A stretch of 64,000 nt of DNA from Candidatus Desulfaltia sp. (lineage in GTDB: Bacteria; Acidobacteriota; Aminicenantia; Aminicenantales; UBA8522), in contig DATKXS010000038.1 of assembly GCA_035528895.1 (NCBI GenBank), positions 23,895 to 87,894 on the forward strand, read 5' to 3'. The translations under genes and the position numbers were made by a program. This document shows positions 4,418 to 27,247 of this stretch, piece by piece. The notes beneath the pieces were generated by a model. That model ran no database searches. It saw only the letters and a list, made by a program, of their open reading frames with translations, and was not told the DNA's origin. Positions within the stretch are counted from its first letter, which is position 1; every line of letters begins with the position of its first letter.

Positions 4418-4426
4418 GTCTCTTGG

Positions 4427-4705: not shown

Positions 4706-4796
4706 CGCTTTTGTCAATATGCTAACATAGGCCCGCCGGGTCGTAAAGCCTTGAGGCGATATTCTGAATGCATCTCTATTCTCAATAGGTTCTGTC

Positions 4797-5567: not shown

Positions 5568-5581
5568 GGAACCCGAATCCT

Positions 5582-6595: not shown

Positions 6596-6652
6596 CCGGT
6601 TCTGCGATGAAATCATAGGCAAAAAGGCCGCAAAGAGCAAGGGCAAACCCGC

Positions 6653-7618: not shown

Positions 7619-7749
7619 TCCGGAATCCTTTCCCTCGAAAAGTTCCAGATTCTAGTCTAATCCTTTTGGAGATCATTTGCACGGCCGGCCATGGATCGAA
7701 CCTGGAGGCGCTTCCACCGGCGCCGACAAACGATTATAATAGAGGTTCC

Positions 7750-8649: not shown

Positions 8650-8663
8650 GGAAGGAGACCGGC

Positions 8664-9905
8664 GTGTGGTGGGAGAATGAATTCCTGCGGGTGCGGAGAC
8701 GGCGGCTTTATCTCGGCCGGGCCTCGGCCGAACATATCGTTGAGCAGAACGGCACTCCCCTTTTTGTTTACAGTCGGGCTCAGATCTTGTCGAACTACCA
8801 GACCCTGCGTCGGACGTTCTCGAGGCATTTGCGACAGCCGCTGCGGATCTGCTACGCCATGAAGGCCAATTCGCACCGTGGGATCCTGAGGCTGCTGCGG
8901 CGCCAGGGAGCCTGGATCGATGCCGTTTCTCCTCAAGAAGTCGAAGAAGCCCGCCGCGCCGGCTACCCCGGCGGCAAGATCCTCTTCACGGGGACTTCCC
9001 TCAGCGGCGAAGACCTCGGCCGCGTCTTCCGGATCGACGGGCTGACCGTGAATATCGACGCCCTGGAGCAACTGGAGTTGATGCGGGATCTGAAGAACAA
9101 GGGGTTCCGGGAGAAAAGAATCAGGGTCTCGATCCGCTGGAACCCGGGGATCGGACGGGGTTTCAACCCGAAAGTGGTCACGGCCGGGATCAGGTCGCCC
9201 GACGGGACGCCGGTCAAGTTCGGCATCGAAGAGAGCAAAGTCATAACGGCGCTGGAGAGGGCTTCGTCCTATGGATTTCTTCCCGTCGGTCTGCACCAGC
9301 ATCTCGGCTCCGGCTGGGTGAATGAGGACTATGAGGTGGTCAGCGCGGCCGTCGACAAGATAGTGGCCATGGCCCGTCGGGTGGAGAGAGAAGGCTTCCG
9401 GCTGGAGTTCCTGGATTTCGGAGGCGGGTTCGGGCCCCAATATGAAAGGAGTCAGAGAACCTTCCCGCTCGCCAGGTACGCTTCTCATATCGCCCGGCGC
9501 ATCACCGGCTCCGGGCTCCGGGTCGAGGCCGTGGTCATCGAACCCGGAAAATACCTGGTCGCGGACGCCGGCGTCCTGTTGCTCCGGGTCGAATACCTCA
9601 AGGAGAGCTACGGCCAGCTTTTCGCCTGTGTCAACGCCGGCACATTCAACAGCCTCCCCCGCCCGGCCATCTATCCCCAGGCCAAACACCATATCGTCCA
9701 TTGCGGACGTGTCTATAACGGCCGGATGAAGCCACTCACCGTGGCCGGCAACCTCTGTGAAACCGGAGATGTCTTCGCCAAGGAAATTCCGATGCCTCTG
9801 CCGCAGAGGGGTGACGTCCTGGCGGTTCTGTGCGCGGGAGCCTACGGCCGGAGCATGGCCTCCCATTTCAACCTGAGGGATATTCCCCGGGAGATCGTTA
9901 TCTGA
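8664..9905 (+). CDS. lysA: PLP-dependent Orn/DAP/Arg decarboxylase family (diaminopimelate decarboxylase-like)
   Basis: YAMKAN PLP-lysine motif, the EPGKYLVADAG motif and CETGD near the C-terminus. GTG start after a GGAAGGAG RBS. The annotated longer N-terminal extension overlaps DUF72 and was trimmed. Confidence 0.65.
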   Translation: MWWENEFLRVRRRRLYLGRASAEHIVEQNGTPLFVYSRAQILSNYQTLRRTFSRHLRQPLRICYAMKANSHRGILRLLRRQGAWIDAVSPQEVEEARRAGYPGGKILFTGTSLSGEDLGRVFRIDGLTVNIDALEQLELMRDLKNKGFREKRIRVSIRWNPGIGRGFNPKVVTAGIRSPDGTPVKFGIEESKVITALERASSYGFLPVGLHQHLGSGWVNEDYEVVSAAVDKIVAMARRVEREGFRLEFLDFGGGFGPQYERSQRTFPLARYASHIARRITGSGLRVEAVVIEPGKYLVADAGVLLLRVEYLKESYGQLFACVNAGTFNSLPRPAIYPQAKHHIVHCGRVYNGRMKPLTVAGNLCETGDVFAKEIPMPLPQRGDVLAVLCAGAYGRSMASHFNLRDIPREIVI

Positions 9906-10120
9906 GGATCTCCCGCAGCACGCTTTCAAGGTCAGCTTAAAGAAACTCAAACCCGGCCCCGAGCAGGGCCCGCGGCAGGATCCTTTGCCCGGCGAGAAGA
10001 GTCTCTTCGGCCATCGCACTGAAGAGGAGACGAAGCAGGTAAAAGATATAGGGCTCCAGGTTTTCGTTGGGACCATGGAGGCCGTCTTATCCCGGGGAGA
10101 AAAGCAAGCCTTTATCGGCC

Positions 10121-10149
10121 TTGACACTCCGCAAACAAAAAAATATAAC
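10121..10149 (+). promoter_or_regulatory. Sigma70-like promoter, TTGACA-17 nt-TATAAC, upstream of the DUF2961 gene
   Basis: Near-consensus -35 (10121-10126) and -10 (10144-10149) with a 17-nt spacer, about 50 nt upstream of an AAGGAGG RBS and TTG start at 10202. Confidence 0.4.
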
Positions 10150-10201
10150 TCCCCTGGGTGGCCTATCAAAACCATTCTCAAATCTCAAGAAAGGAGGCTC
10201 C

Positions 10202-11362
10202 TTGAAAAACAACGTCTTAAGAGTCGGCTTTGTTTTGCTCTTGGTCGCGTTCCTTGCTTATGGGGATGAAGACAAGCCGTTCAACGGGCTCAACCTCAGC
10301 CAAGGGAACCTGAGCCGCCTGTCCAAGGCCCAGACGCGCTCCATCAGCCCGGAAAACTTCAGCGGCGAGAAAGGCAAGGCCGGCATGTCGGTCGACGGCC
10401 CGGCCATGAAGGCGGCCCGCGACCTCGGCCAGGGCTGGAAAGTCTCCCCCTACGTGAGGATCCAGCCCAAGGAAACGTTCGTCATGGCTGACGTCAGGGG
10501 CGCGGGCGCCCTCCAACAGATCTGGCTGACCCCGGCCGGGGCCTGGAGGTTCGCCATCATCCGCTTCTACTGGGACGACGAAACCGAGCCCTCCGTCGAA
10601 TGTCCGGTCGGCGATTTCTTCGCCTGCGGCTGGGGACGGTACGCCCAGATATCGTCGCTGGCCGTCTGCGTCAATCCGGGGAGCGCCTTCAATTGCTACT
10701 GGCAGATGCCGTTCCGGAAGGGGTTCAAGGTTACGCTCGAGAACATTGCCGACGACAACTTCACCCTTTATTACCAGATCAACTACACGCTGACCGAGGT
10801 GCCCGACGACGCCGCCTATTTCCACGCCCAGTTCCGGCGGACGAACCCCCTGCCTTATAAGAGCGTCTACACGATCGTCGATGGGATCAAGGGATGGGGC
10901 CACTACGTCGGCACTTATATGGCCTGGGGTGTGAACAACAACGGCTGGTGGGGCGAGGGCGAGATCAAGTTCTACCTTGACGGCGACAAGGATTTCCCGA
11001 CGATCTGCGGCACGGGCACTGAGGACTACTTCTGCGGCTCCTATGACTTCGACACCAAGAGGCCGGACGGCACGGTCCAATACACCGAGCACACGACCCC
11101 CTACAGCGGCCTTGCCCAGGTCATCCGGGGTGATGGGCATTATGACGTCCAGCAGCGGTTCGGGCTCTACCGCTGGCACATTATGGACCCGATCCGGTTC
11201 GATAAGGACCTCAAGGTGACGATCCAGGCCCTGGGCTGGCGTTCGGGCGGACGGTATCTGCCGCTCCAAGATGATATCTCGTCCGTGGCCTTCTGGTACC
11301 AGCAGGAACCCCACGCACCGTTCCCGAAGCTGCCCGATAAGGATTATCTAGAAATCATCTGA
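10202..11362 (+). CDS. DUF2961 family secreted protein (proposed glycoside hydrolase, GH172-like)
   Basis: TTG start 4 nt after AAGGAGG, signal peptide (VLRVGFVLLLVAFLAYG). The about 385-aa body has the conserved aromatic/Gly-rich pattern of DUF2961. Confidence 0.5.
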   Translation: MKNNVLRVGFVLLLVAFLAYGDEDKPFNGLNLSQGNLSRLSKAQTRSISPENFSGEKGKAGMSVDGPAMKAARDLGQGWKVSPYVRIQPKETFVMADVRGAGALQQIWLTPAGAWRFAIIRFYWDDETEPSVECPVGDFFACGWGRYAQISSLAVCVNPGSAFNCYWQMPFRKGFKVTLENIADDNFTLYYQINYTLTEVPDDAAYFHAQFRRTNPLPYKSVYTIVDGIKGWGHYVGTYMAWGVNNNGWWGEGEIKFYLDGDKDFPTICGTGTEDYFCGSYDFDTKRPDGTVQYTEHTTPYSGLAQVIRGDGHYDVQQRFGLYRWHIMDPIRFDKDLKVTIQALGWRSGGRYLPLQDDISSVAFWYQQEPHAPFPKLPDKDYLEII

Positions 11363-11503
11363 ATCAGGCCGGGGCCGTTCCCCCCGCTACCATCCTCGGT
11401 TGCCCGGGGACGTCCTCCATTCTCTGCCTATCCCTTCTTGTCCGAATTGACAATTTCTATAACCAAACCTATATTTTGATTAGAGAAAGGGTTCGATTAA
11501 CCC

Positions 11504-14500
11504 CTATTTTTTGGGGTAAGCCGGCCGTTCCGGGAAATTCAGCGGATTCTCTCTGATCTTCTCCAGGATGACCTCGATGGCTTTCTCCAGCTGGAGGTCA
11601 CGCCCAGCCACGGCGGAACCGGGGTCATTGTCGATGAGAATATCCGGATCAGCGCCGTGGTTCTCGACCAGCCACTTCCCTTCCGGGCCGTAAAAGGCAT
11701 TGTTCGATTGTTCGACCCGGCCGTTGTCGATCGTCGTCTGACCGTTGAGGATACCGACCAAGCCACCCCAGGAAGGCACGCCGACCACGGTCCCCAGCTT
11801 CCGCGACTTGAAGTGCTCGACAAAAGCTTCTCCGTCGGACCCGTTGTTCTCATTGGATAGAACGACGTAATTGCCGTTTCCGGTCGATCCCGGATAGCGG
11901 AAGGGCACCATTCCCCGCAGGACGTTGAAGGAGTCCAGTTGCCTCTCCAGCTTGTCGATGAGGAAATACTCGGTCCAGCCGCCGGAGTTTCGCCGCAGGT
12001 CGAGGATGATCCCGTCCTTGTAGCGGAAGGCTCTCCAGTACTTGTCGAACTCGCCAATTCCGCCCGGGCCCATGGCGTTGATATGCATATACCCAACCCG
12101 TCCGTTAGTCGCCTCCGCGATGGTGCGGATGTTGTCCTGGATCCAGCGGAAGTAGCGGAGTTCCCGATCGCTGCGGATAGGCTCGACCTCGTATGTTTTG
12201 GCACCTTCCAGGGAGGGCCTGGCGTTTACCGTCACTTTGACCTTCTGTCCTCTGGTGACTTGGAGGAGCTTGAAATAACCATCCCCGGCCCGGAGCGGCA
12301 CACCGTTAATGGCCAGGAGGTAGTCATTCTCCTTGATGTCCATGTCCGGCCGGACAAGGGGTCCCGATAGGTCCAAGTTGACTTCGGTCGGGCCGTAAAT
12401 CCGGGCCAGCCTATAAAAGCCTGCCGCCGGATCAGCGACAAGGTCGGCCCCAAGAAGACCCGTGTAAAGGGGTGATCGCGGCGTCTCGGCCGGACCGTAG
12501 TCCCCCCCACCGATGTAGGTATGGGAGACACAAAGCTCGCCGACCATCTGCGACATGACCCAGTTGAGCTCCTCCCGCGATGAAAGATGGGGAATATAGG
12601 CCCGGTACTTTTCGCCCATGGCCTTCCAGTCGCGGCCGTGGAAACCGGCGTCATAGAAGAAATCCCGGTACCAGCGCCAGCAATCATTGAAGATCTGGTT
12701 CCATTCCTTCTGCAGATCAACACGATAGAGGAGAGTCGAAAGGTTAAGCTTCTCGCCCAATCCCTTGTTCTGATAGGCCTTATCAACGGATACCCAATAG
12801 ATGTCGTCTTCTTTCCGGATGATCAGCTGCCCGCCGTTTGTCGAGAGGTCGAACTCGCGTATTTTATCGCCAAGGATAACCTCTTTTCCGGCGGCGACAT
12901 CGAAGATGTGGAGGTCCCACTTGGTGGCGCCGCGGGGCGCGAAGATCTCCTCATACTCATCGTCGGTGAATTTGTCCACAGAGGCATAGAGAACCTTGCC
13001 CTTGCCAGCTTTGAGGTGGAAATAGTTACCCGCTGGAACGGGAAGCGGATAAACCCGCTTGGACAGTCCTTCAAGGTCGATGCGAAAAGGCCCGACTTCT
13101 CCTTTTTTATCGCTTTTTTCCTCCGGAGTCTCTCCCGCAAAAGGCGGCTTCTCTCCGGCCCTGAGCTGCACGGCCATGATCTGCTGGGGAGAAGCGATGA
13201 CGTGGTTGTCCTCATAGAAATCCATCTGGACGCCGAAATTCCGGCTGGACACAAAATAAAGATAGCGGCCCTCAGCATCGAAGGACGGGTAAAGATTATC
13301 GTAGAAATCGTCGGTGACGGCATGGCGTTTCTCCGTCTCCGTGTCGTACAGGAAGATCCGGCTGTTACGATTGTATTGGACGAGGCTGTAAGCGATCCAG
13401 CGGGAATCGGGCGCCCAGGAATAATCGCTGATCTCCCAGTAGAACTCGTCGTTCTTCATCTGGTTGGAGGAATCGATTTTCTTGAGTTTCTTGGACTCCA
13501 CGTCGATAACAAAGATCGAGAAATCCTTGTTGCCGAAGAGAATCTTCTTCCCGTCCGGCGACCAGAGGAGGTGATAAACCGTTCTATCGAGATCGCTGGT
13601 CAACGGCGTCCATTCTCCACCATCTGCTTTTTGGAGATAAAGCTGGTAATCGCCGCTCTTGTCCGAGAAGAACGCGATCCTTTTCCCATCGGGAGAGGGA
13701 GCCGGGTACATTTCGCGCGTGCCGGGTGTATTGGAGAGGTTGACCGCTGGCTCTTTCGCCGTGGGCACGGTGAAGACGTCTCCCCGAGCTTCGAGGACCA
13801 CGGCCTCGCCATCATCGGCGATCTTGAGATGGTGGATGTATTCGCGCGGGCTGATAACGCGGTCGCGAAGGGCCCAGCGGTCGGAGGGGACGAGCACTGC
13901 AATTTTATTTGATTGTCCGGACGCAACGTCGAGGACACGGAGATAGCCGTCCTGGACGTAAACGATCGTTTGGCCGTCGGTCTGGGGCATCATCACGTCG
14001 AAATCGGCATAGCTCGTGACGGGACGGACCTCACCGCCGCCGATCTTCTGGGCGTAGATGTTGGAAATCCCATTCCCCCGGTCGGAAACGAAATACATTG
14101 TCTCGCCAATCCACATCGGATAGCTGTTCTTGCCCACGTAGTCCGAGACGGGCGTATACTTCCGGGTGCGGCCGTCGTACATCCAGATGTCCTGGTAGCG
14201 TCCCCCTTTGTACCGTTTCCAGTAATATTCCTCGGTGCCGCGGCGGCAATAAAGAAAATTCTGTCCGTCGGGTGAGAAGCTGATGAGCACCCCTCGCTCC
14301 AGCGGCAAACGCTCGGGGGCGCCGCCCTTGACGGATACATAATAGAGGTTGGGATCGCGGCCGATGACGTTCTCGAACATCGACCGGAAAACGACCTTGG
14401 CGCCGTCAGGCGTCCAGCCCACGACATCGGCCGATCCCGGCTGGTAAGTCAGCCGGGTTGGAGCTCCTCCCTCGGCCGGCATGAGATAGACCGACGGGGA

Positions 14501-14755
14501 ACCGTCGTAGGTCGCAGAAAAGGCGATCCACTTCCCGTCCGGCGAGAATTTGGCAGAGGATTCATAGCCGGGGAAGGTCGTGATCCGCGAGGCCGTCCCG
14601 CCCTGAGCGGAGACGATCCAGAGGTCGCCTTCATAGGTAAAGACGATCTTGCCTTTCTGGATGCTCGGGTAGCGGAAGAACCGTCCCTCCTCTGCGGCCA
14701 GCGCCGTACCGGCTATCAGGACAAACGCAAATAGCATGACCAGAGCTTTTTTCAT
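11504..14755 (-). CDS. Tricorn protease homologue (S41 peptidase with beta-propeller, PDZ and C-terminal catalytic domains)
   Basis: 1083 aa with a signal peptide, repeated WSPDG/FSPDG propeller motifs, a PDZ-like region and a C-terminal S41 Ser/His region (GSDGEAFV). Confidence 0.8.
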   Translation of the reverse strand: MKKALVMLFAFVLIAGTALAAEEGRFFRYPSIQKGKIVFTYEGDLWIVSAQGGTASRITTFPGYESSAKFSPDGKWIAFSATYDGSPSVYLMPAEGGAPTRLTYQPGSADVVGWTPDGAKVVFRSMFENVIGRDPNLYYVSVKGGAPERLPLERGVLISFSPDGQNFLYCRRGTEEYYWKRYKGGRYQDIWMYDGRTRKYTPVSDYVGKNSYPMWIGETMYFVSDRGNGISNIYAQKIGGGEVRPVTSYADFDVMMPQTDGQTIVYVQDGYLRVLDVASGQSNKIAVLVPSDRWALRDRVISPREYIHHLKIADDGEAVVLEARGDVFTVPTAKEPAVNLSNTPGTREMYPAPSPDGKRIAFFSDKSGDYQLYLQKADGGEWTPLTSDLDRTVYHLLWSPDGKKILFGNKDFSIFVIDVESKKLKKIDSSNQMKNDEFYWEISDYSWAPDSRWIAYSLVQYNRNSRIFLYDTETEKRHAVTDDFYDNLYPSFDAEGRYLYFVSSRNFGVQMDFYEDNHVIASPQQIMAVQLRAGEKPPFAGETPEEKSDKKGEVGPFRIDLEGLSKRVYPLPVPAGNYFHLKAGKGKVLYASVDKFTDDEYEEIFAPRGATKWDLHIFDVAAGKEVILGDKIREFDLSTNGGQLIIRKEDDIYWVSVDKAYQNKGLGEKLNLSTLLYRVDLQKEWNQIFNDCWRWYRDFFYDAGFHGRDWKAMGEKYRAYIPHLSSREELNWVMSQMVGELCVSHTYIGGGDYGPAETPRSPLYTGLLGADLVADPAAGFYRLARIYGPTEVNLDLSGPLVRPDMDIKENDYLLAINGVPLRAGDGYFKLLQVTRGQKVKVTVNARPSLEGAKTYEVEPIRSDRELRYFRWIQDNIRTIAEATNGRVGYMHINAMGPGGIGEFDKYWRAFRYKDGIILDLRRNSGGWTEYFLIDKLERQLDSFNVLRGMVPFRYPGSTGNGNYVVLSNENNGSDGEAFVEHFKSRKLGTVVGVPSWGGLVGILNGQTTIDNGRVEQSNNAFYGPEGKWLVENHGADPDILIDNDPGSAVAGRDLQLEKAIEVILEKIRENPLNFPERPAYPKK

Positions 14756-15125: not shown

Positions 15126-15350
15126 TTACAGGCTCAGCCGTAGCATAGTGAAATTGACGGCCTCGACCTGGGGGATGTCTTCATTGTCCCCCAGACTGTC
15201 CTCGATCCGCACCTGGATCGCCGTGCGGATATTCTCGAGGGCTTCTTCGTAGCTTTCACCGTGAGCTTCGCAGTCCGCGAACTCCGAGCACACAGCCAGC
15301 CAGCCGTTGCCGTTCTTGCCGATCACCACCGAGAATCGATAATCTTCCAT
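15126..15350 (-). CDS. HicB-like antitoxin-domain protein (UPF0150 family), apparently orphan
   Basis: YRFSVVIGKNGNGWLAVCSEFADCEAHGESYEEALENIRTAIQVRIE matches the HicB/UPF0150 pattern (xYxVVIEKDEDGGYxAxVPDLPGCxSQGDTxEEALxNxxEAI). It lies 56 nt downstream of dnaE2 on the same strand, with no HicA-like ORF adjacent. Confidence 0.55.
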   Translation of the reverse strand: MEDYRFSVVIGKNGNGWLAVCSEFADCEAHGESYEEALENIRTAIQVRIEDSLGDNEDIPQVEAVNFTMLRLSL

Positions 15351-15406: not shown

Positions 15407-18400
15407 CTAAAATGTTTTTAAAAAGGAGCAGTTATGGATCTTGACCAGGCCGGCGCCGCCGCGGCGGACCTCTCCCCGGAGGCAGCAGACGGGCGGCTGT
15501 CCGAAGCTCAAACAACGCCTCTCCCCCACCCCCTCGAGAAGCCCGGTCTCGTCCTCAAATAAATAAAAATACTTACTGCCGTTGCTCGTGTCCTTGAGCC
15601 GAGCATCGACCACCCGCACCACGAGCTCTACTTGCTGTCCGAAGTAATTGCCCAAATCTTTGACCCGGAGCTCCGGCCTCTTCCCTTCGTAGAGCTCGAG
15701 GGAATCGGGCCCCGGGCTGAAGCCGAGGGAGTCGACGAGCATCTTGGCCTTCTCGAGCGAATTCATGTCCGCGACCTCCTCCATGTCCTCGAGCCCCTGG
15801 AAATAGCGCAATATCTGCCGCGTCCGCCGCGGCTCGAGGGAATCGAACACCCCGGCCTTGATGAGCGAAAGAAGCTCGGCCCTTCCGAGATGGACGCGGG
15901 CCAGGAAATCCTCGACCGAAGCGAACTCGCCATCCTTGCGCTCAGCGACGATCTTCTCTATCGTCTTGACCGCCAGCCCCTTGATCGAGGTCAAGCCGAC
16001 GCGGATGTTGGACCCCTCGACTTCGAAGAGATGGCCGCTCCGGTTGATGTCCGGGCCCAAGAATTTGATGCCGCGGCGTTTGGCCTCTTCGATGTACTCG
16101 CTGAGCGGGTAGTAGCCGCCGCCGGCGTTGAGCACCGCCGCAAGATAGGGCACGGTGTGATGGACCTTGAGGTAGACGGCCTGGTAGGACATGGCCGCGT
16201 AGGAGGCGCTGTGGGCCTTGTTGAAGGAGTAGCCGGAGAATTTCTCCATGGTCGCCCAGAGCTTTTCGATCTCGGCGGTCGGGTAGCCCCGCTCCCGCGC
16301 CTCGCGGAAGAACTTTTCTTTGAGCGCCGACCGGGTGCCGTTCTTTTTCTTGAGCGCCCGCCGCAGCAGGTCGCCTTCCTCGGGCGGCATCCCCGCCACC
16401 CGCTCCGCCACCTGCATCACCTGCTCCTCGTAGAGGAGAAGCCCGCCGGTCTCAGGCAGGATTTTCTCGAGGAGAGGCTCCCGGAACGTCTGCCGCTTCT
16501 CCCGCGCCCGGAGGAGCGCCTCTTTCATCCCGCTCTCGGTCGGGCCGGGCCGGATGAGGGCCAGGGCCTGGGTCAGTTCGTAGATTGTCTCCGGCTTCAT
16601 CCGCCGGAGGAGGTTCATCATGGCCGGACTCTCCACCTGGAAGCAGCCGATGGTCTGGGCTGTCTGGAGCAGCTTGTACGTCTTGGCGTCATCGGGCGGG
16701 ATGCTCCGGAGGCCAAGCCTCTCCCTGGTCTCGGAGATGGCCGCCAGCCCCCGCACCGAAAGGAGGTCGAGCTTGATGAGCTTCAGGTCCTCGACCGCGT
16801 CCCGGTCGAAATGGCTCATGACGAGCCCCTTGGCCGACTCCTCGAGCGGGAGGAAGCGGGTCGCCGGTGCGGGCGTGAGGATGACGCCTCCGACATGGAG
16901 CGAGATCTCGGCGTAGACGCCGCCAAGTTGGGAAGCCATCTTCCAGACCTCGAGATGGCCCGCGGCCGGCTTGTCCCGCCGCAGGAAATCGGGCTCGGCG
17001 AAGAACGGGATCCTCTTCGTCAGCGACCGCGCCTCTTCCGGCGGAATGCCGAAGGCCCGGGCCGTCTCATAGAGAGCGGAGCGGGCGCGGTAGTTCTTCA
17101 GGCTGCAGACAAAGGCCGCCCCCGTCCTCCCCTGCCCGTATTTTTTCAGGACATAGTTGAGGACCTCGTCGCGCCGGCGGGAGTCGAAATCGAGGTCGAT
17201 GTCCGGTGGGTCGTTCCGGCCGGCGTTGAGGAAGCGCTCGAAGTAGAGATCGAACTCGACCGGACTGACGTGGGAGACACCGAGGAGGTAGGCTAAGTAG
17301 GAGGAGGCACCCGAACCCTTGAGGTTGTGGAGGATGCGGTGGCGACGGGCGAACTCGATGACGTCGTGGACGATGAGGAAGTAAGGCGCAAACCCGGATT
17401 TCTCGATGACATCCAACTCCCGGCGGGCCCGCTGCCTCTCCCGCCAGCTCAAATCCTTCGCGCCGCGGAGCCGCTCCATGACGAGCCCGCGCAGCGGCGT
17501 GGGAAAGAGGTCGGGAGGGAGCGGCGGCACGATCTCCTCAAAGGCGAAGCGGCATTTTTCGGCGACCTCAAATGTCCTCTGGAAGGCATCCTTGACGGCG
17601 GGACCGAGCTTGCGGAGGGCGACTGTTTCCTGGTCCGGGCCGAAGAGCGTCGTCCTTTCCGCCAGCCTGTCCTTCTCCGGAGGATAAGGGACCTTCCTGG
17701 TGATGGCGTGGAGAAGGATGAGGCGCTCCGGGCTCTGGACGAATTTCAGCGGGTTGGCCCAGACGAGGGGAAGGCCATGGGTGCGGGACCATTCCGCCGC
17801 CCGACTGAAATTCGCAAAATCACAGCCCAGGTAGAAATCGCCATCGCTGAATGAATCGAGAACAACGCCGGTCCCGTTGCCTGAATTGACCTGAAAACCA
17901 GCGGCGTTCTTGCCGGGACGATTTTCCGCGATAATCTTGAACTCCGCCGGCAGGTCGATGTCCTCAGCCCTGGGAATATATACGGTGACGAGGCCCTCGG
18001 TCGCCAATCGAACCACTTTTTCCCCTGTTTCTTTCTCCCCTTCTGGCATCGATCCTCCCACTCCATTCCCAGCCTGAGTCTTTGCTTTCGCCGTTGCGCT
18101 CTTCCCGTCAACTGGCTTTCTTCCCCACTCTCCTGCTTGCCTTACCAAGGCTGCACTTTCCTCACGCGCTGTGTCTATTTTTCCTTCTCTCGTCTCTCCT
18201 TCTTCTTTCGGCCGCCGCCCCTTCTGGTTGAATATCTCCATCAAATTCCAGTAGCCCTCCCGGCTTTTGACGAGGAAGACAAACTGTCGGCCGCCGACCG
18301 CGAGCTCGCAACCGAAAAGGGGCCGCGCCCCCCGCGCTTCCGCCGCCCTCTTCCACTTCGCCCAGCCGTAGATATTCTCGATGTCGGCGAGGGCCGCCGC

Positions 18401-18505
18401 CCCTATCCTTTTCCGCGCCACCCACGCCGCCGCTTCCTCCAGCGTGACGCTCCCCTTCCCCCGGCTGTAAACCGAATGGAGACGCAGCGGGACGAACATG
18501 CTCAA
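15407..18505 (-). CDS. dnaE2: Error-prone DNA polymerase III alpha-subunit paralogue DnaE2 (ImuC)
   Basis: 1032 aa with an N-terminal PHP domain (MFVPLRLHSVYS), a Pol III alpha core, and no C-terminal tau-binding extension. Co-directional with dinB and lexA immediately upstream. Confidence 0.8.
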   Translation of the reverse strand: MSMFVPLRLHSVYSRGKGSVTLEEAAAWVARKRIGAAALADIENIYGWAKWKRAAEARGARPLFGCELAVGGRQFVFLVKSREGYWNLMEIFNQKGRRPKEEGETREGKIDTAREESAALVRQAGEWGRKPVDGKSATAKAKTQAGNGVGGSMPEGEKETGEKVVRLATEGLVTVYIPRAEDIDLPAEFKIIAENRPGKNAAGFQVNSGNGTGVVLDSFSDGDFYLGCDFANFSRAAEWSRTHGLPLVWANPLKFVQSPERLILLHAITRKVPYPPEKDRLAERTTLFGPDQETVALRKLGPAVKDAFQRTFEVAEKCRFAFEEIVPPLPPDLFPTPLRGLVMERLRGAKDLSWRERQRARRELDVIEKSGFAPYFLIVHDVIEFARRHRILHNLKGSGASSYLAYLLGVSHVSPVEFDLYFERFLNAGRNDPPDIDLDFDSRRRDEVLNYVLKKYGQGRTGAAFVCSLKNYRARSALYETARAFGIPPEEARSLTKRIPFFAEPDFLRRDKPAAGHLEVWKMASQLGGVYAEISLHVGGVILTPAPATRFLPLEESAKGLVMSHFDRDAVEDLKLIKLDLLSVRGLAAISETRERLGLRSIPPDDAKTYKLLQTAQTIGCFQVESPAMMNLLRRMKPETIYELTQALALIRPGPTESGMKEALLRAREKRQTFREPLLEKILPETGGLLLYEEQVMQVAERVAGMPPEEGDLLRRALKKKNGTRSALKEKFFREARERGYPTAEIEKLWATMEKFSGYSFNKAHSASYAAMSYQAVYLKVHHTVPYLAAVLNAGGGYYPLSEYIEEAKRRGIKFLGPDINRSGHLFEVEGSNIRVGLTSIKGLAVKTIEKIVAERKDGEFASVEDFLARVHLGRAELLSLIKAGVFDSLEPRRTRQILRYFQGLEDMEEVADMNSLEKAKMLVDSLGFSPGPDSLELYEGKRPELRVKDLGNYFGQQVELVVRVVDARLKDTSNGSKYFYLFEDETGLLEGVGERRCLSFGQPPVCCLRGEVRRGGAGLVKIHNCSFLKTF

Positions 18506-18653
18506 GCTCTATTCCCTCTCCCCCTCTCCTTCATCCTCCCCCGCCAACTAGAGAAGGAAGACGAGAGTCGCCGATCAATCCTCCTCCCCTGGTGGGAGGA
18601 GGTCGGGAGGAGGGGGATTTCTTTATTCAGAAGAGACACGCGCATCATGACGA

Positions 18654-19877
18654 TTACCTTGTCAACGACGCGGTCTTGAGGACGAACCCGCGCCTCTGCT
18701 CGAACTCGTAGACGGTGTCGAGCATCTTTTCCCGGACCGTCAGGAGCGAGCCGAACCCGTACTTCTCCCGCACCCGGTCGACGGCCGCACCCAGCCGCTC
18801 TTCCCGGTCCGAGTACGGCTCGAAGAGAGAAAGGGACCTGGCCCTGACCAGGTCCGAGGCCTTGACGCCGACGAGCCTCAAGGCCAGCCGCGACGAGGCG
18901 AAAAGATTCAGGAAAAGGTCCTCGGCGACCCGGTAGATCCCGCCCATCTCCTGGAGGGGTGTCAGCAGGAGGCGGCGCCGCACCTCGGTCTTGAAGTCGG
19001 AGTAGCGGGCCTTGACCTCGATGACGTGGGCGAAGAGGTGCTCCTGCCGCAGGCCGAGGGTCAGCCGGTCGCAGAGATAGGCGAGATGAGCGAGGAGCAG
19101 CCGCCTGTCCCAGAGGTCCTCGAGGAAGGTCGTCTCCCGCGAGACGGACTTGGGGACGGTGGGCGTAAACACGGGCCGGCTGTCGATCCCGCGCGACTGA
19201 AGATAGACCTCCTCGCCCTCGAGACCGAAGAGGGAGCGCAGCGCCGGCCGCGGCATCCCCCAGAGGTCGCCGATCTTGTGGATGTTGAGCATCCGGAGGA
19301 CGACCTGGGCCTTGGGCCCGATCCCGGGCAGGCTCTCGATGCCGAGGCCGCGGAGGAACTCCTCCTCGCAACCCTCCTCAACCTCGAAGAACCCGGCGGG
19401 CTTGGCCTTTTTGGTGGCCAGTTTGGCCAGGATCTTGTTGGGCGCCATACCAACCGAGACCTTGAGTCCGGTCGCTTTCTCAATGCGCGCCTTCATCTGC
19501 CGGGCGACGGCGGAGAAGGACGAATAGAGCGGCCGGCAGCGGGTGAAATCGAGGTAGGCCTCGTCGAGCGAGGCCTCCTCGACGTCGGGCGTGTACTCAT
19601 GGAGGATGCGGAAGAACTTCTCGGAGAAGGCCTGGTAAACCTGGTAGTTACCGCGGATGAAGAGGCCGTTCGGGCAGAGCTGGTAGGCCTTGCGCAGGGG
19701 CATGCCGGAGTGGACGCCGTAGCGGCGGGCCTCGTAGTTGCAGGTCGAGGCCACGCCCCGCTCGTGGGGCAGACCGCCGACGATGACCGGCTTCCCTTTC
19801 AGGGCGGGGTCGAGCAGCTCCTCGACGGCCGCGAAAAAGGCGTCGATGTCGATGTGGACGATCGAGCGGCGCTTCAT
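18654..19877 (-). CDS. dinB: Y-family DNA polymerase (DinB/Pol IV-like; occupies the ImuB position of the cassette)
   Basis: MKRRSIVHIDIDAFFAAVEE... and SLDEAYLDFT retain the catalytic Asp/Asp/Glu, followed by little-finger-like helix-hairpin-helix regions. The longer annotated N-terminal extension is not supported. Confidence 0.75.
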   Translation of the reverse strand: MKRRSIVHIDIDAFFAAVEELLDPALKGKPVIVGGLPHERGVASTCNYEARRYGVHSGMPLRKAYQLCPNGLFIRGNYQVYQAFSEKFFRILHEYTPDVEEASLDEAYLDFTRCRPLYSSFSAVARQMKARIEKATGLKVSVGMAPNKILAKLATKKAKPAGFFEVEEGCEEEFLRGLGIESLPGIGPKAQVVLRMLNIHKIGDLWGMPRPALRSLFGLEGEEVYLQSRGIDSRPVFTPTVPKSVSRETTFLEDLWDRRLLLAHLAYLCDRLTLGLRQEHLFAHVIEVKARYSDFKTEVRRRLLLTPLQEMGGIYRVAEDLFLNLFASSRLALRLVGVKASDLVRARSLSLFEPYSDREERLGAAVDRVREKYGFGSLLTVREKMLDTVYEFEQRRGFVLKTASLTR

Positions 19878-20071
19878 CCCGGCCTCGTTTTCATTTGAAT
19901 CGCTCTTCCGCCCTTCCCTTCTCCGTCCAGTTGTCATTGCGAGGAACCTTGTGACGAAGCAATCTCCAACTGAGATGGCTTCGCTAATGCTCGCCATGAC
20001 ATACTGTCGTACTGCATCCGCGATGACAAAAAGTCCTCCTGCAATCAGAGCCGCACATAGAGGGACCTCCC

Positions 20072-20689
20072 TCAGTACTTCCGCAGCAGGCCGACGACCC
20101 TGCCGACGACCCGAAGCTCCTTGACCTCGACTGGCGCGAACTCCGGGTTCTCGGGAACGAGGAGGATCCGGCCGTTCTCCTTGCGGAGCCTTTTCAACGT
20201 CACCGAGCCGTCGTCCAGGCGCGCCACGACCATCTCGCCGGACTGGGCCGTGTTCGTCCTCTCCAGGAGCACCCGGTCGCCGTCGTCGATGTAGGCGTCC
20301 ACCATGCTCTTCCCGGCGACGCGGACACAGAAGATGTTGCCGCGGCGGCGGCCGACCATCCACTCGGGCACGTCCACACTCTCGCCGAGAGAGTCGAAGA
20401 CCTCCTGGGCCCGGCCGGCGGGAGCGACGCCGACGAGGGGGACCTTGACCCGGTTCTCGAACGGCGAGGGGATCCCGGCGAGGCGCAACTCCCCGGCCTC
20501 ACGGCTGAGGTAGCCCTTCCTTTCCAGGCTCAGGACGTGCTTGAAGACGGCCGAGGGATTGGCCAGGCCCAGCTGTCTTCCGAGCTCGCGGATGGTCGGG
20601 GGAAAGCCGTGCTCGAGGACAAAGGCCTCGATGACCTGGAGGGCCTTTCTCTGGCGCTGGGTCAGCTCTTTGTACAATCTGTTCACCAT
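20072..20689 (-). CDS. lexA: LexA repressor
   Basis: N-terminal winged HTH (QRQRKALQVIEAFVLEHGFPPTIRELGRQLGL), a VAPAG cleavage-site region, and S24 peptidase Ser (GKSM) and Lys (TLKRL). ATG start with an AAGGTG RBS. The annotated upstream TTG start would overlap the -35 element. Confidence 0.85.
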   Translation of the reverse strand: MVNRLYKELTQRQRKALQVIEAFVLEHGFPPTIRELGRQLGLANPSAVFKHVLSLERKGYLSREAGELRLAGIPSPFENRVKVPLVGVAPAGRAQEVFDSLGESVDVPEWMVGRRRGNIFCVRVAGKSMVDAYIDDGDRVLLERTNTAQSGEMVVARLDDGSVTLKRLRKENGRILLVPENPEFAPVEVKELRVVGRVVGLLRKY

Positions 20690-20705
20690 TTTGTTCACCT
20701 TATAT

Positions 20706-20734
20706 ACAATAGGCCGCCGGGAGGCCCTTGTCAA
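20706..20734 (-). promoter_or_regulatory. Putative lexA promoter (TTGACA-17 nt-TATTGT on the minus strand)
   Basis: The -35 is the reverse complement of 20729-20734 and the -10 the reverse complement of 20706-20711, with a 17-nt spacer. A degenerate SOS-box-like element (TTGTTC-N7-ATACAA, 20691-20709) overlaps the -10 and start region. Confidence 0.35.
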
Positions 20735-20792: not shown

Positions 20793-20832
20793 TTGTATAT
20801 AATCATACAATTAATTGTATTTTTTTATACAA
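20793..20832. promoter_or_regulatory. Two tandem palindromes TTGTAT-N6-ATACAA (candidate LexA operators / SOS boxes)
   Basis: Box 1 (20793-20810) is TTGTATATAATCATACAA and box 2 (20815-20832) is TTGTATTTTTTTATACAA. They resemble the gammaproteobacterial CTGT-N8-ACAG box. Box 1 overlaps the -10 of a TTGACA(20773-20778)-17 nt-TATATA plus-strand promoter. Confidence 0.5.
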
Positions 20833-20954: not shown

Positions 20955-21626
20955 ATGGAAAATAACGAAAATCTTCTTAAGAAGGTTCGCTGGCTTGGCT
21001 ATCCTCTATTTGAAACAGAGGAACATGAGGATGCCAATGAGATCTTGGCCGATGTTGTGAAAAGTGAGAACCCCCGACTTTGGCAGGGATTTCCAGTTAT
21101 GTTGGCCAACAGCGAGGAAAGAAATGTCTTCGATTACAATCGGGTTCTGTCTTTATTGAAAGCCCCGGATAAAAGAGACCATTTTCATCGTCTGCTGTTG
21201 GTGTCTTATGTCGTATACAAGATACAAAACCTGGAATCGGCTTGGGTCTCGGACCTGCAAAAGATTTTTGGGCCAGCCGATATAAAAGACATAGGAAAGC
21301 TCGTCAATCAATTCGTCGCCAAAGAGTATATCCAGGTGGGATCGGTTCGGTTGTCAAGCGAAAAAATCAAGACTGTTTTCCGGGACTATTTTGGGAAAGC
21401 TGGGTCCAGAATAGAAAATATATTATCTGTCCGGGAGGAATTCGGATTGGAATATTCCCTGTCGCAGATATTCTCTCCTTCGCAAAAAGAAATAATTCTA
21501 AAAAAGCTGAGACGGGAAAAGCTCTCAAAAACCGAGGCTGAATACTTTTCCAGAACGATCAAGAAAAAGCTGTTGGCCCTTGCAAATCCCGAGTTACAGC
21601 GCCTGGCCCGCCAGCTTATTGAATGA
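20955..21626 (+). CDS. Hypothetical protein (223 aa) on an AT-rich islet, transcribed divergently from lexA
   Basis: Clean ORF with a clearly lower GC content than its neighbours and no recognisable family motifs. A promoter overlapped by the SOS-like palindromes lies upstream. Confidence 0.5.
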   Translation: MENNENLLKKVRWLGYPLFETEEHEDANEILADVVKSENPRLWQGFPVMLANSEERNVFDYNRVLSLLKAPDKRDHFHRLLLVSYVVYKIQNLESAWVSDLQKIFGPADIKDIGKLVNQFVAKEYIQVGSVRLSSEKIKTVFRDYFGKAGSRIENILSVREEFGLEYSLSQIFSPSQKEIILKKLRREKLSKTEAEYFSRTIKKKLLALANPELQRLARQLIE

Positions 21627-27044: not shown

Positions 27045-27247
27045 ATCCCAAGTCTGCCTATAGAGCGCTTTCGTACATGCGAGCGAAGCGGGGCAATCCG
27101 GCTCTTTGGGCTGTCCCGAGGAGAGCGAGGGATCTCATCAAGCAGTAACCTTGATGGGATCGCCATGCTCCCAAAGGTCGCTCGCAATGACAACGTAACA
27201 TAGACAATTGCGCTTAGAATAGTATACCCATCGTTAGGACCGCAGGG

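What the first reader, a model, noticed from the sequence alone, without database searches (positions are those of the whole stretch)
15407..20689. lexA-dinB(Y-family)-dnaE2 mutagenesis cassette lacking imuA and carrying a catalytically intact Y-family member
lexA, a Y-family polymerase and DnaE2 (PHP domain, no tau-binding tail) are co-directional with short gaps (194 and 148 nt). This matches the known imuA-imuB-dnaE2 / lexA-linked adaptive mutagenesis cassette. Here there is no imuA-like gene, and the Y-family protein keeps the DinB catalytic Asp/Asp/Glu (DIDAFF..., SLDEAYLD). ImuB proteins are usually degenerate at these positions. A GC-rich inverted repeat (CCTCCTCCC...GGGAGGAGG) lies in the dinB-dnaE2 spacer.
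Basis: partly seen in the sequence, partly recalled or inferred. Interest (0 to 1): 0.5.

Follow-up and report, generated by a model that had tools for sequence, protein, structure and literature searches.

The report
LexA, DinB-like and DnaE2-like polymerase operon
This is a real, strongly conserved three-gene DNA-damage operon of Aminicenantes bacteria (a repressor, an active DinB-like polymerase and a second, tail-less DnaE-type polymerase); it is a new lineage of a two-polymerase "mutasome" type already described in Bacteroidetes, not a new kind of system.

Summary
Three co-directional genes lie on the minus strand: lexA (20072-20689), a Y-family polymerase (18654-19877) and a C-family DnaE-type polymerase (15407-18499). 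The gaps are 194 and 148-154 nt.

- **Y-family protein.** It passes NCBIfam's Pol IV equivalog cut-off. It keeps D10/D12/D105/E106, which are invariant in 61 orthologues, whereas two reference ImuB proteins lack them.
- **DnaE-type protein.** It keeps the polymerase aspartates. It has no tau-binding C-terminal domain, no QxxLF clamp motif, a degenerate PHP HxH motif and a variable low-complexity insert. It passes neither the DnaE1 nor the DnaE2 NCBIfam cut-off.
- **Conservation.** The host is Candidatus Aminicenantes (Acidobacteriota). PolY sits directly upstream of dnaE in 58 of 59 loci, and lexA upstream of that in 48 of 49.
- **Missing parts.** No ImuA, ImuB or RecA homologue was found in the window or in about 88 related loci.
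- **PolY tail.** It has a clamp-like SLSLF, a RecA-N-terminus-like motif and an invariant GFVLKTASLTR end.

This matches the ImuA-less "PolY-DnaE2" (DnaE2B-PolY-RecA) module of Timinskas and Venclovas (2019, 2026), known mainly from Bacteroidetes. Aminicenantes is absent from the supplementary files of theirs that I could search. The spacer inverted repeat is real but lineage-restricted.

Verdict: new member of a known kind, of modest interest.

The parts
20706..20734 (-). sigma-70-type promoter of the operon: TTGACA, 17 nt, TATTGT
   Evidence: Consensus scan, 10 of 12 matches. The -35 TTGACA is at a fixed distance from the lexA ATG in 54 of 55 Aminicenantes loci. Function is inferred.
20680..20699 (-). 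invariant element GGTGAACAAAATGGTGAACA spanning the 5' leader, the Shine-Dalgarno region and the first lexA codons; candidate LexA operator (direct repeat GGTGAACA-N4-GGTnAACA)
   Evidence: GGTGAACAAAATGGT.AACA is invariant in 55 lexA upstream regions whose other positions have diverged. It is the only close match in the window: 1 mismatch to the 20-nt pattern, and the next best site has 5. A distant relative, L090, has GGCGAAAATTAGGCGAAAATATG at the same place. Operator function is inferred, and part of the conservation is due to coding and to ribosome binding.
20072..20689 (-). lexA, 205 aa, autocleavable SOS repressor
   Evidence: TIGR00498 equivalog above cut-off; Pfam LexA_DNA_bind plus Peptidase_S24. 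The Ala91-Gly92 cleavage site (VAPAGR), Ser128 (GKSM) and Lys166 (LKRL) are present.
19932..20001 (.). nested imperfect palindrome in the lexA-polY spacer (TGTCATTGCGAG...CGAAGCAATCTC / GAGATGGCTTCG...CTCGCCATGACA); not a conserved part of the system
   Evidence: Two nested arm pairs, each 92% complementary. The lexA-polY spacer length ranges from 7 to 556 nt among orthologous loci. Similar ...TCGCAATGAC... strings occur in other loci's intergenic DNA.
18654..19877 (-). polY, a catalytically intact DinB-like Y-family polymerase, 407 aa
   Evidence: NF002677 Pol IV scores 305.7 against a cut-off of 256. The best PDB match is Pol IV 7YLL at 2.8e-73. H8, D10, D12, F14, F15, E19, D105, E106 and Y108 are invariant in 61 orthologues.
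18822..18836 (-). SLSLF (aa 348-352), beta-clamp-binding-like motif of PolY
   Evidence: It resembles the QL[SD]LF consensus quoted in PMC3919608. L349, L351 and F352 are conserved in the orthologues. Binding is inferred.
18729..18806 (-). RecA-N-terminus-like motif of PolY (aa 358-383, REERLGAAVDRVREKYGFGSLLTVRE)
   Evidence: A profile built from 31 published RecA-NT motif strings (Table S4 of PMC6511836) hits aa 364-378 of the window protein (E = 4.5e-4). It hits the same place in most of the 61 orthologues (59 of 63 hits have E < 0.02). It also hits E. coli RecA residues 8-29, but not E. coli DinB.
18657..18728 (-). C-terminal tail of PolY ending in the invariant GFVLKTASLTR
   Evidence: K401-L405 are invariant in 61 orthologues. 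The same tail is found in PolY genes upstream of DnaE-type genes in distant contigs L087, L088, L090 and L091 (42-54% identical), and it is absent from E. coli DinB. Its role as the docking peptide for the DnaE partner is inferred.
18500..18653 (-). polY-dnaE spacer with a pyrimidine-rich half, a purine-rich half and the hairpin CCTCCTCCC-ACCAG-GGGAGGAGG (18580-18602)
   Evidence: The sequence is shown. The hairpin is part of the minimum-free-energy fold, but z is only -0.72. The spacer is shared only with the closest relatives, L007 and L008 (85% mean column identity). Most orthologues have 3-21 nt here.
15407..18499 (-). dnaE2-type C-family polymerase, 1030 aa from the ATG (1032 from the TTG at 18505)
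   Evidence: Pfam PHP, DNA_pol3_alpha, finger and HHH_6 domains. The catalytic PPDIDLDFD (aa 433-439; nt 17183-17203) and KLDLLS (aa 576-581; nt 16757-16774) align with E. coli D401/D403/D405 and D555. The PHP motif is FVPLRLHS where the canonical form has HxH. Nothing aligns with the QADMF clamp motif, and the protein ends at about E. coli residue 1074.
17855..18220 (-). variable low-complexity insert inside the PHP domain of the DnaE-type protein (aa ~94-215)
   Evidence: tblastn alignments to most orthologues break between query residues ~93 and ~166-221, and typical orthologues are 933 aa. The sequence is rich in K, E, G and A.

Best explanation
This is a LexA-controlled translesion-synthesis operon, lexA-polY-dnaE2, of Candidatus Aminicenantes. 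It belongs to the ImuA-less 'PolY-DnaE2' class, called DnaE2B-PolY-RecA by Timinskas and Venclovas.

Shown here:
- The three genes are what they appear to be.
- Both polymerases keep their catalytic residues.
- The arrangement is conserved throughout the lineage.

Inferred mechanism:
1. LexA represses its own promoter, probably through the invariant GGTGAACA-N4-GGTnAACA element at the transcription and translation start.
2. DNA damage activates RecA, LexA cleaves itself at Ala91-Gly92, and the three genes are transcribed as one unit.
3. The active DinB-like PolY takes the scaffold role that the dead ImuB plays in canonical cassettes. It binds the beta clamp through SLSLF, binds RecA (in place of ImuA) through its RecA-N-terminus-like helix, and binds the DnaE2-type polymerase through its invariant C-terminal tail and/or thumb.
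4. The DnaE2-type enzyme has no clamp motif, no tau-binding domain and a decayed PHP domain, so it is brought to the clamp only through PolY.
5. The two polymerases share lesion bypass, for example insertion by one and extension by the other.
For: - Gene identities and family cut-offs.
- Catalytic residues of PolY aligned to solved Pol IV structures, against ImuB references that lack them. They are invariant in 61 orthologues.
- DnaE catalytic aspartates kept; no C-terminal domain, no clamp motif, degenerate PHP.
- Synteny: PolY directly upstream of dnaE in 58 of 59 loci, lexA upstream of that in 48 of 49. The polY-dnaE gap is 21 nt or less in 42 of 61 loci.
- The same lexA-PolY-DnaE order occurs in more distant contigs, L090 and L091 (DnaE 45% and 37% identical; 31% for L091 by blastp), with the same PolY tail.
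- RecA-NT-like motif detected with a profile of published instances.
- No promoter-like site in either spacer, and one strong promoter upstream of lexA.
- No ImuA or ImuB homologue in the window or in about 88 related loci.
- One Aminicenantes genome (L075) also carries a plain DinB without the tail next to the cassette, so the cassette PolY is a specialised paralogue.
- Published precedent for the same composition: PMC6511836 section 17 and PMC12926913 sections 20 and 22. Actual Bacteroidetes dinB-dnaE pairs were retrieved from plasmids. Their PolY is the closest outside relative in the plasmid collection (39% identity and 251 bits, against 166 bits for E. coli DinB).
Against: - The DnaE-type protein fails both NCBIfam cut-offs and is about equally distant (31-36% identity) from Bacteroidetes DnaE2B, proteobacterial DnaE2 and E. 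coli DnaE1.
- Its grouping with Bacteroidetes DnaE2B has only 58% neighbour-joining bootstrap support.
- It lacks the C-terminal SRDF[H/R] motif that about 77% of DnaE2 proteins carry.
- I could not check whether the same genomes hold a separate replicative DnaE1, or imuA/imuB elsewhere.
- No second copy of the candidate operator was found that would define a regulon, and part of its conservation is explained by the ribosome-binding site and by the codons for Met-Val-Asn.
- In this window the 148-nt spacer, and in 19 of 61 loci spacers of 50-390 nt, loosen the coupling of polY and dnaE.
- Complex formation, co-transcription and damage induction are all untested.
Confidence: 0.7

Rival explanations
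1. The three genes are co-regulated SOS genes, but the two polymerases act independently. On this view it is a Geobacter-style lexA-dinB operon that happens to be followed by a second translesion polymerase, with no PolY-DnaE complex.
For: PolY is a complete, active-looking Pol IV that passes the equivalog cut-off. lexA-polY operons without dnaE2 are known in Geobacter (PMC6511836). Spacers of 50-390 nt separate polY and dnaE in 19 of 61 loci, including this window. P0124, a member of the same DnaE clade, stands alone without a PolY neighbour. One genome (L051) keeps dnaE while polY is truncated.
Against: Near-universal adjacency (58 of 59 loci), with gaps of 3-21 nt in most. The DnaE-type protein has no clamp motif of its own. 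PolY carries an invariant extra tail that co-occurs with the DnaE neighbour across 42-54% identical relatives and is missing from the stand-alone DinB of L075. Published AlphaFold models support complexes for this module type (PMC12926913).
Confidence: 0.2
2. It is a split canonical ImuA-ImuB-DnaE2 system. imuA and an inactive imuB lie elsewhere in the genome, and the adjacent DinB is a passenger.
For: Split cassettes are known (PMC3919608 introduction). Only 64 kb of this genome and flanks of up to 10 kb of the related genomes were examined. tblastn with two proteobacterial ImuA sequences is insensitive to divergent ImuA.
Against: No ImuA or ImuB hit in the window or in about 88 loci. The DnaE-type protein lacks the SRDF[H/R] C-terminal motif typical of ImuA/ImuB-associated DnaE2 and fails the NF004225 model. 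PolY itself carries the clamp and RecA-NT motifs that ImuB would provide. In the 2026 survey, DnaE2 proteins associated with active PolY occur in genomes without imuA or imuB.
Confidence: 0.05
3. The DnaE-type gene is the organism's replicative Pol III alpha subunit (a truncated DnaE1), and its position after lexA-dinB is incidental.
For: It scores slightly higher on the DnaE1 model than on the DnaE2 model (537 against 491 bits). A few DnaE1 proteins truncated after the OB domain are known (PMC3919608). I could not show a second dnaE in these genomes.
Against: No tau-binding domain, nothing at the clamp-motif position, a decayed PHP HxH motif and a hypervariable low-complexity insert. The gene sits in a lexA-headed operon in 48 of 49 loci. 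The whole clade scores barely half the DnaE1 cut-off. In one genome the neighbouring genes have decayed.
Confidence: 0.04

Closest known systems
PolY-DnaE2 operons of Bacteroidetes ('Bacteroid_PolY2' + DnaE2; DnaE2B-PolY-RecA module) - Timinskas & Venclovas 2019 (PMC6511836) and 2026 (PMC12926913). Examples retrieved here: Emticicia oligotrophica pEMTOL01 (L092) and an Adhaeribacter swui plasmid (L093)
   Same: [quoted passage not shown] There is no ImuA and no ImuB-C. A RecA-NT-like motif sits in the PolY C-terminal extension, and the system is linked to SOS. Bacteroidetes PolY2 is the nearest outside relative of the window PolY in the plasmid collection.
   Different: - A canonical LexA is encoded at the head of the operon. 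Bacteroidetes have no canonical LexA and use phage-repressor-like regulators (PMC8565304).
- The host lineage is different (Aminicenantes/Acidobacteriota), and it is absent from the supplementary files of both surveys that I could search.
- The PolY tail (GFVLKTASLTR) differs from the Bacteroidetes tails.
- The DnaE proteins are only 34-36% identical, and the sister relationship is weakly supported (58%).
- The cassette is chromosomal here, whereas the two retrieved Bacteroidetes examples are on plasmids.
Canonical lexA-regulated imuA-imuB-dnaE2 (imuABC) mutagenesis cassette. References retrieved here: Burkholderia glumae plasmid (L003) and Rhizobium leguminosarum plasmid (L004)
   Same: SOS-linked gene order with a Y-family gene followed by a dnaE2-type gene. 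The DnaE2-type enzyme lacks the tau-binding domain. The Y-family member carries clamp-binding and RecA-NT-like motifs.
   Different: There is no ImuA. The Y-family member is catalytically intact and has no ImuB-C beta-barrel domain (25 aa after the RecA-NT motif, against more than 100 aa). The DnaE lacks the SRDF[H/R] motif and fails the NF004225 cut-off.
Geobacter sulfurreducens lexA-imuB-C-polY operon (GeoPolY-like group)
   Same: [quoted passage not shown]
   Different: The Geobacter operon has a stand-alone ImuB-C and no dnaE2. The present operon has dnaE2 and no ImuB-C.
E. coli DinB (Pol IV)
   Same: Same catalytic core and the same NCBIfam equivalog family. D8/D103/E104 and the steric-gate Phe are conserved.
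   Different: Only 33-37% identical. The window protein has about 55 extra C-terminal residues, comprising the RecA-NT-like motif and the conserved tail, and it is encoded between lexA and a DnaE-type gene.

Membership tests
Canonical ImuA-ImuB-DnaE2 cassette | imuA (inactive RecA homologue) in the cassette or nearby | tested here: not met
   tblastn with two ImuA references finds nothing in the 64-kb window (best E = 1.1) or in about 88 related loci with flanks of up to 10 kb. The neighbouring ORFs have other families or none. Sensitivity to very divergent ImuA is limited, and the rest of the genome was not seen.
Canonical ImuA-ImuB-DnaE2 cassette | Y-family member is ImuB: catalytic acidic residues lost, long ImuB-C domain | tested here: not met
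   D10, D12, D105 and E106 are present and invariant. Only 24 residues follow the RecA-NT-like motif. There is no BLASTP similarity to two ImuB references.
Canonical ImuA-ImuB-DnaE2 cassette | DnaE2 recognised by the NCBIfam 'error-prone DNA polymerase' model NF004225, and the C-terminal SRDF[H/R] motif (about 77% of DnaE2) | tested here: not met
   491 bits against a cut-off of 939. The C-terminus is ...IHNCSFLKTF. The motif definition comes from PMC3919608.
DnaE2 group in the broad sense (Timinskas et al. 2014) | Polymerase aspartates conserved, no C-terminal (tau-binding) domain, PHP metal site not conserved, clamp motif weak or absent | tested here: met
   PPDIDLDFD and KLDLL align with D401/D403/D405/D555. 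The protein ends at about E. coli residue 1074. The PHP motif is PLRLH in place of the canonical HxH. Only this first PHP motif was checked, not all nine metal-binding positions. There is a deletion at the QADMF position.
DnaE2 group in the broad sense (Timinskas et al. 2014) | Co-occurs with a replicative DnaE1 in the same genome | not testable with these tools
   Only flanks of up to 10 kb of related genomes could be read, and no second dnaE lies in them.
DnaE2B-PolY-RecA module (PMC6511836; PMC12926913) | Apparently active PolY encoded next to, and co-directional with, the DnaE2-type gene | tested here: met
   In the window, in 58 of 59 Aminicenantes loci, and in the outgroup contigs L087, L090 and L091.
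DnaE2B-PolY-RecA module (PMC6511836; PMC12926913) | RecA-NT-like motif in the PolY C-terminal extension | tested here: met
   A profile of 31 published motif instances hits aa 364-378 (E = 4.5e-4 in a 67-sequence set) and the same position in most orthologues (59 of 63 hits have E < 0.02). It also hits RecA residues 8-29, but not E. coli DinB.
DnaE2B-PolY-RecA module (PMC6511836; PMC12926913) | Genome encodes no ImuA, ImuB or ImuB-C | tested here: inconclusive
   None was found in the window or in the flanks of about 88 loci.
DnaE2B-PolY-RecA module (PMC6511836; PMC12926913) | DnaE falls in the DnaE2B clade of the DnaE2 phylogeny | tested here: inconclusive
   Neighbour-joining tree on 842 ungapped columns: the Aminicenantes-type clade has 100% support, its sister grouping with two Bacteroidetes DnaE2B has 58%, and its separation from DnaE2A plus DnaE1 has 69%. 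Pairwise scores to all three groups are similar. The published reference tree was not available.
DinB / DNA polymerase IV | NCBIfam equivalog score above cut-off; catalytic Asp/Asp/Glu and steric-gate Phe | tested here: met
   NF002677 scores 305.7 against 256. The alignments to 7YLL and 4IRC are, and the residues are invariant in 61 orthologues.
LexA | Winged-helix DNA-binding domain plus S24 peptidase domain, with an Ala-Gly cleavage site and a Ser/Lys dyad | tested here: met
   TIGR00498 scores 163.7 against 110.95, with PF01726 and PF00717. A91-G92, S128 and K166 are present. Self-cleavage and DNA binding were not tested.

The most novel reading that the evidence does not exclude
The Aminicenantes-type operon and its relatives (the P0122-P0125 clade) could be a separate lineage of two-polymerase mutasome, distinct from both DnaE2A and Bacteroidetes DnaE2B systems. 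Three features would define it:
- an invariant PolY C-terminal peptide (G[FY]VLKTASLTR) that docks a DnaE with no clamp motif and a decayed PHP domain;
- a canonical LexA encoded in the operon;
- a previously undescribed direct-repeat LexA operator (GGTGAACA-N4-GGTnAACA, 12-bp period) placed over the transcription and translation start.
Probability: 0.3. Interest if true: 0.5.

Novelty: new member of a known kind. Interest (0 to 1): 0.3.

Why it matters
This extends the ImuA-less, two-active-polymerase type of SOS mutasome to a large uncultured lineage, Aminicenantes (class Aminicenantia, Acidobacteriota), and to related environmental contigs. Until now the type was documented mainly in Bacteroidetes.

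The module is almost universal in the Aminicenantes loci examined and is headed by a canonical lexA. It therefore offers a clean natural case of an active DinB-like enzyme apparently doing ImuB's scaffolding job. It also yields two concrete, testable handles:
- a short invariant PolY tail that may be the DnaE-docking element;
- an invariant promoter element that may be the Aminicenantes LexA box.

It does not change the current picture of translesion synthesis. It fills a taxonomic gap and sharpens hypotheses that the 2019 and 2026 computational surveys already raised.

Tried and rejected
1. I tried to settle DnaE1 versus DnaE2 with curated HMMs. Both cut-offs are failed, and the nearest cluster representatives are equally ambiguous. 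No DnaE2 structure turned up in the PDB sequence search.
2. I tried to find an Aminicenantes DnaE1 among long representatives from the exhaustive protein search by looking up their cluster names. The only taxon name returned was a Chloroflexia MAG for one protein, so co-occurrence stays untested.
3. I considered the paired TTGTAT-N6-ATACAA palindromes upstream of lexA as the LexA box. I rejected this because they occur only where the divergent unknown gene (20955-21626) is the neighbour (window, L013, L040) and are absent from the other lexA promoters.
4. I searched for further copies of the invariant GGTGAACAAAATGGT element to define a regulon. None was found in the window or in the flanks of 81 Aminicenantes loci.
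5. I tested the spacer inverted repeat as a structured RNA or terminator. The fold is no better than shuffles (z = -0.72), no T-run follows it, and it is not conserved beyond the closest relatives.
6. I checked the unknown 223-aa neighbour as a possible hidden ImuA. It has no family hit even at E = 5 and no similarity to the ImuA references, and it is present in only 3 loci.
7. The Erill et al. 2006 cassette paper (PMC1326238) is not held in the library. A search for Aminicenantes plus LexA found no paper.
8. My first bootstrap calculation was invalid because the trees were rooted inconsistently. I redid it on unrooted splits.

Full report
**What is in the sequence.**
The region 15407-20689 holds three long ORFs, all on the minus strand.

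- The first, 20072-20689, is a 205-aa LexA. It passes the TIGR00498 equivalog (163.7 bits against a cut-off of 110.95) and has Pfam LexA_DNA_bind and Peptidase_S24 domains. It keeps the Ala-Gly cleavage site (VAPAGR, A91-G92), the nucleophile Ser128 (GKSM) and Lys166 (LKRL).
- The second, 18654-19877, is a 407-aa Y-family polymerase. It passes the NCBIfam DNA polymerase IV equivalog NF002677 (305.7 against 256) and has IMS and IMS_C domains.
- The third, 15407-18499 from the ATG (18505 if an upstream TTG is used), is a Pol III alpha homologue with PHP, DNA_pol3_alpha, finger and HHH_6 domains.

The only missing detail was the strand.

**The Y-family protein is an active-type polymerase, not an ImuB.**
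In the phmmer alignment to E. coli Pol IV (PDB 4IRC), query D10 falls on D8 and D105/E106 fall on D103/E104. The FF steric-gate pair is also kept. The best solved relative is a Pol IV, 7YLL, at E = 2.8e-73.

I retrieved two canonical imuA-imuB-dnaE2 cassettes, from a Burkholderia glumae plasmid and a Rhizobium leguminosarum plasmid, as references. In a joint alignment both ImuB proteins have non-acidic residues at these columns. They show no BLASTP similarity to the window protein.

Among 61 orthologues taken from related genomes, H8, D10, D12, F14, F15, E19, D105, E106 and Y108 are invariant.

**The DnaE-type protein.**
- The catalytic aspartates are present. PPDIDLDFD (aa 433-439) and KLDLLS (aa 576-581) align with E. 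coli D401, D403, D405 and D555.
- The first PHP motif is FVPLRLHS where the canonical form has HxH.
- The position of the E. coli clamp motif QADMF is deleted.
- The protein ends at about E. coli residue 1074, straight after the OB fold, so there is no tau-binding domain.
- Residues ~94-215 are a low-complexity insert that most orthologues lack. These are typically 933 aa.

These are the architectural marks of DnaE2 given by Timinskas et al. 2014. However, the protein fails both curated models: DnaE1 NF004226 scores 537 against 1002, and error-prone polymerase NF004225 scores 491 against 939. It also lacks the C-terminal SRDF[H/R] motif.

It is 31-36% identical to proteobacterial DnaE2, Bacteroidetes DnaE2 and E. 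coli DnaE1 alike. In an exhaustive search of 1.84 billion representatives, the nearest clusters outside Aminicenantes are four proteins of 903-951 aa at 43-47% identity. These are equally ambiguous on the curated models.

In a neighbour-joining analysis, the Aminicenantes proteins and these four form a clade with 100% support. Its sister grouping with two Bacteroidetes DnaE2 sequences gets only 58% (one search was a faulty first attempt).

**Whose genome it is, and conservation.**
The closest homologues are annotated as Candidatus Aminicenantes or Aminicenantales. A scan of one genome per GTDB species returned 80 loci. Those with informative titles are Aminicenantes, Aminicenantales, Saccharicenans or Acidobacteriota. 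The rest are titled uncultured Eubacteriales, Clostridiales or uncultured bacterium, which I take to be mislabelled MAGs.

- In 58 of 59 loci with enough upstream sequence, a full PolY gene lies directly upstream of the DnaE-type gene.
- In 48 of 49 loci, lexA lies upstream of that.
- The one exception, L051 (CP070750.1), keeps dnaE but has only a PolY remnant and no lexA.
- The polY-dnaE gap is 3-21 nt in 42 of 61 loci and 50-390 nt in the rest. The lexA-polY gap ranges from 7 to 556 nt.

Beyond Aminicenantes, contig L090 (DnaE 45% identical) has lexA-PolY-DnaE. L091 (37% identical; 31% by blastp) has the same order with two small inserted genes. L087 has a PolY C-terminus that overlaps the DnaE start. 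P0124 stands alone.

**What is absent.**
tblastn with two ImuA sequences, two ImuB sequences and E. coli RecA finds no ImuA-like or RecA-like gene. The only ImuB matches are weak ones to PolY itself. This holds for the 64-kb window and for about 88 related loci.

The window's immediate neighbours are an unknown 223-aa protein, an SDR, a B12-radical SAM enzyme, a HicB-like protein and a Tricorn-type protease. I could not examine whole genomes.

**The PolY C-terminal extension.**
After the little-finger domain, the protein carries three elements:
- SLSLF (aa 348-352), close to the QL[SD]LF clamp consensus;
- REERLGAAVDRVREKYGFGSLLTVRE (aa 358-383), which resembles the RecA N-terminus ([24 protein letters not shown]);
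- a 24-residue tail ending in GFVLKTASLTR.

I built a profile from 31 RecA-NT-like motif strings listed in Table S4 of Timinskas & Venclovas 2019. It hits aa 364-378 of the window protein (E = 4.5e-4) and the same position in most of the 61 orthologues (E from 2e-7 upward; four score E > 0.1). It also hits E. coli RecA residues 8-29, and it does not hit E. coli DinB.

The last residues, K401-L405, are invariant in the 61 orthologues. The tail recurs in the PolY genes of L087, L088, L090 and L091, which are only 42-54% identical overall. One Aminicenantes genome (L075) also has a second, ordinary DinB near the cassette. That DinB lacks both the motif and the tail. So the cassette PolY is a specialised paralogue.

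**Regulation.**
One strong sigma-70-like promoter lies upstream of lexA: TTGACA, 17 nt, TATTGT, at 20734-20706. No promoter-like site lies in either spacer.

Across 55 Aminicenantes loci the -35 box, a TATnnT -10 box and the 20-nt string GGTGAACAAAATGGTnAACA are conserved, while the rest of the upstream region is not. The string reads as a direct repeat with a 12-bp period. It covers the leader, the ribosome-binding site and the codons for Met-Val-Asn. L090 has GGCGAAAATTAGGCGAAAATATG at the equivalent place.

I take this as a candidate LexA operator, but only as an inference. Coding and translation signals explain part of the conservation. No second site was found that would define a regulon.

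CCTCCTCCC (18602-18594) and GGGAGGAGG (18588-18580) do form a 9-bp hairpin, and the pyrimidine-rich half of the spacer can pair with its purine-rich half. The predicted energy is no better than that of shuffled sequence (z = -0.72), and there is no T-run. The spacer is shared only with the two closest relatives. It is a lineage-restricted insertion. It could modulate dnaE translation, but it is not part of the conserved system.

**Comparison with what is known.**
[quoted passage not shown] These lack ImuA, often include lexA, and have RecA-NT-like motifs in the Y-family member. One variant, in Bacteroidetes, has two apparently active polymerases (PolY2 and DnaE2) and no ImuB-C.

The 2026 survey from the same group (PMC12926913) names this the DnaE2B-PolY-RecA module. 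It states that such DnaE2 proteins occur in genomes without imuA or imuB, and it supports complexes with AlphaFold models. Sanchez-Osuna et al. 2021 (PMC8565304) show SOS regulation of dinB-dnaE operons in Bacteroidetes by non-canonical LexA proteins.

I retrieved two such pairs from Bacteroidetes plasmids. Their PolY is the closest outside relative of the window PolY in the plasmid collection.

Aminicenantes does not appear in the supplementary files of either survey that I could search, and no paper in the library combines Aminicenantes and LexA.

The present operon is the same in composition and in presumed logic. It differs in four ways:
- it has a canonical lexA in the operon;
- the host lineage is different;
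- the PolY tail is different;
- the DnaE clade is very divergent.

**Verdict.**
I file it as a new member of a known kind.

My best explanation, at 0.7 confidence, is an SOS-controlled module in which an active DinB-like PolY is the clamp-bound, RecA-binding scaffold for a DnaE2-type partner.

- Gene identities, catalytic residues, motifs and synteny are shown.
- Operon transcription, LexA control, RecA and clamp binding, the PolY-DnaE complex and the division of labour are inferred.
- The main open points are the presence of a separate DnaE1, the genome-wide absence of imuA and imuB, and the true phylogenetic position of the DnaE.

Noticed in passing
window 20793-20810 and 20815-20832: Two perfect TTGTAT-N6-ATACAA palindromes lie 4 nt apart, between lexA and the divergent unknown gene 20955-21626 (3 matches in the window against 0.35 expected). 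Similar pairs occur only in L013 and L040, the only other loci that have this divergent gene. They are therefore probably the operator of that gene, not a LexA box.
   Followed up: yes
window 20955-21626 (+): A 223-aa protein with no Pfam or NCBIfam family even at E = 5. It is conserved (82% and 68% identity) next to lexA in only two other Aminicenantes loci. Its helical C-terminal part and the adjacent palindromes suggest an unclassified DNA-binding regulator.
   Followed up: partly
window 19932-20001: A nested imperfect palindrome of about 70 nt (TGTCATTGCGAG ... CTCGCCATGACA, with an inner pair CGAAGCAATCTC / GAGATGGCTTCG) lies in the lexA-polY spacer. Related ...TCGCAATGAC... strings occur in intergenic DNA of other Aminicenantes loci (L025, L028, L035), and there is one further exact CTCGCAATGAC at window 27181-27191. 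It looks like a small dispersed palindromic repeat.
   Followed up: partly
window 17855-18220 (aa ~94-215 of the DnaE-type protein): A lysine/glutamate/glycine-rich low-complexity insert lies inside the PHP domain. Its length varies greatly between orthologues (proteins of 903-1045 aa), and most 933-aa orthologues lack it.
   Followed up: partly
L075 13763-14860 (-): One Aminicenantes genome carries a second, ordinary DinB (36% identical to E. coli DinB, catalytic residues intact, no RecA-NT-like motif or tail). It lies about 1 kb downstream of the cassette on the opposite strand.
   Followed up: yes
L051 (CP070750.1) 9182-9646 and 10007-12820: This is a decayed copy of the cassette. Only the C-terminal 155 residues of PolY remain and lexA is missing, yet the DnaE-type gene is intact (937 aa).
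   Followed up: partly
window 15126-15350 (-) and 11504-14755 (-): A 74-aa HicB-like antitoxin fragment and a 1083-aa Tricorn-type protease follow the operon. The same two genes follow it in L002/L017, so this part of the context is shared by a subset of genomes.
   Followed up: no
L092 (Emticicia oligotrophica pEMTOL01) 4411-10160: The Bacteroidetes dinB-dnaE pair lies on a conjugative plasmid, next to an SOS-response-associated peptidase and a divergent helix-turn-helix gene. This type of two-polymerase module can therefore be mobile.
   Followed up: no
L001 7795-7925: A long inverted repeat (arms of about 25 nt, GGTCAGGTCTACACTTTTAACTTA ... TAAGTTAAAAGTGTAGACCTGACC) lies just upstream of the lexA promoter in the complete genome CP070825.1. 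Its nature is unknown.
   Followed up: no
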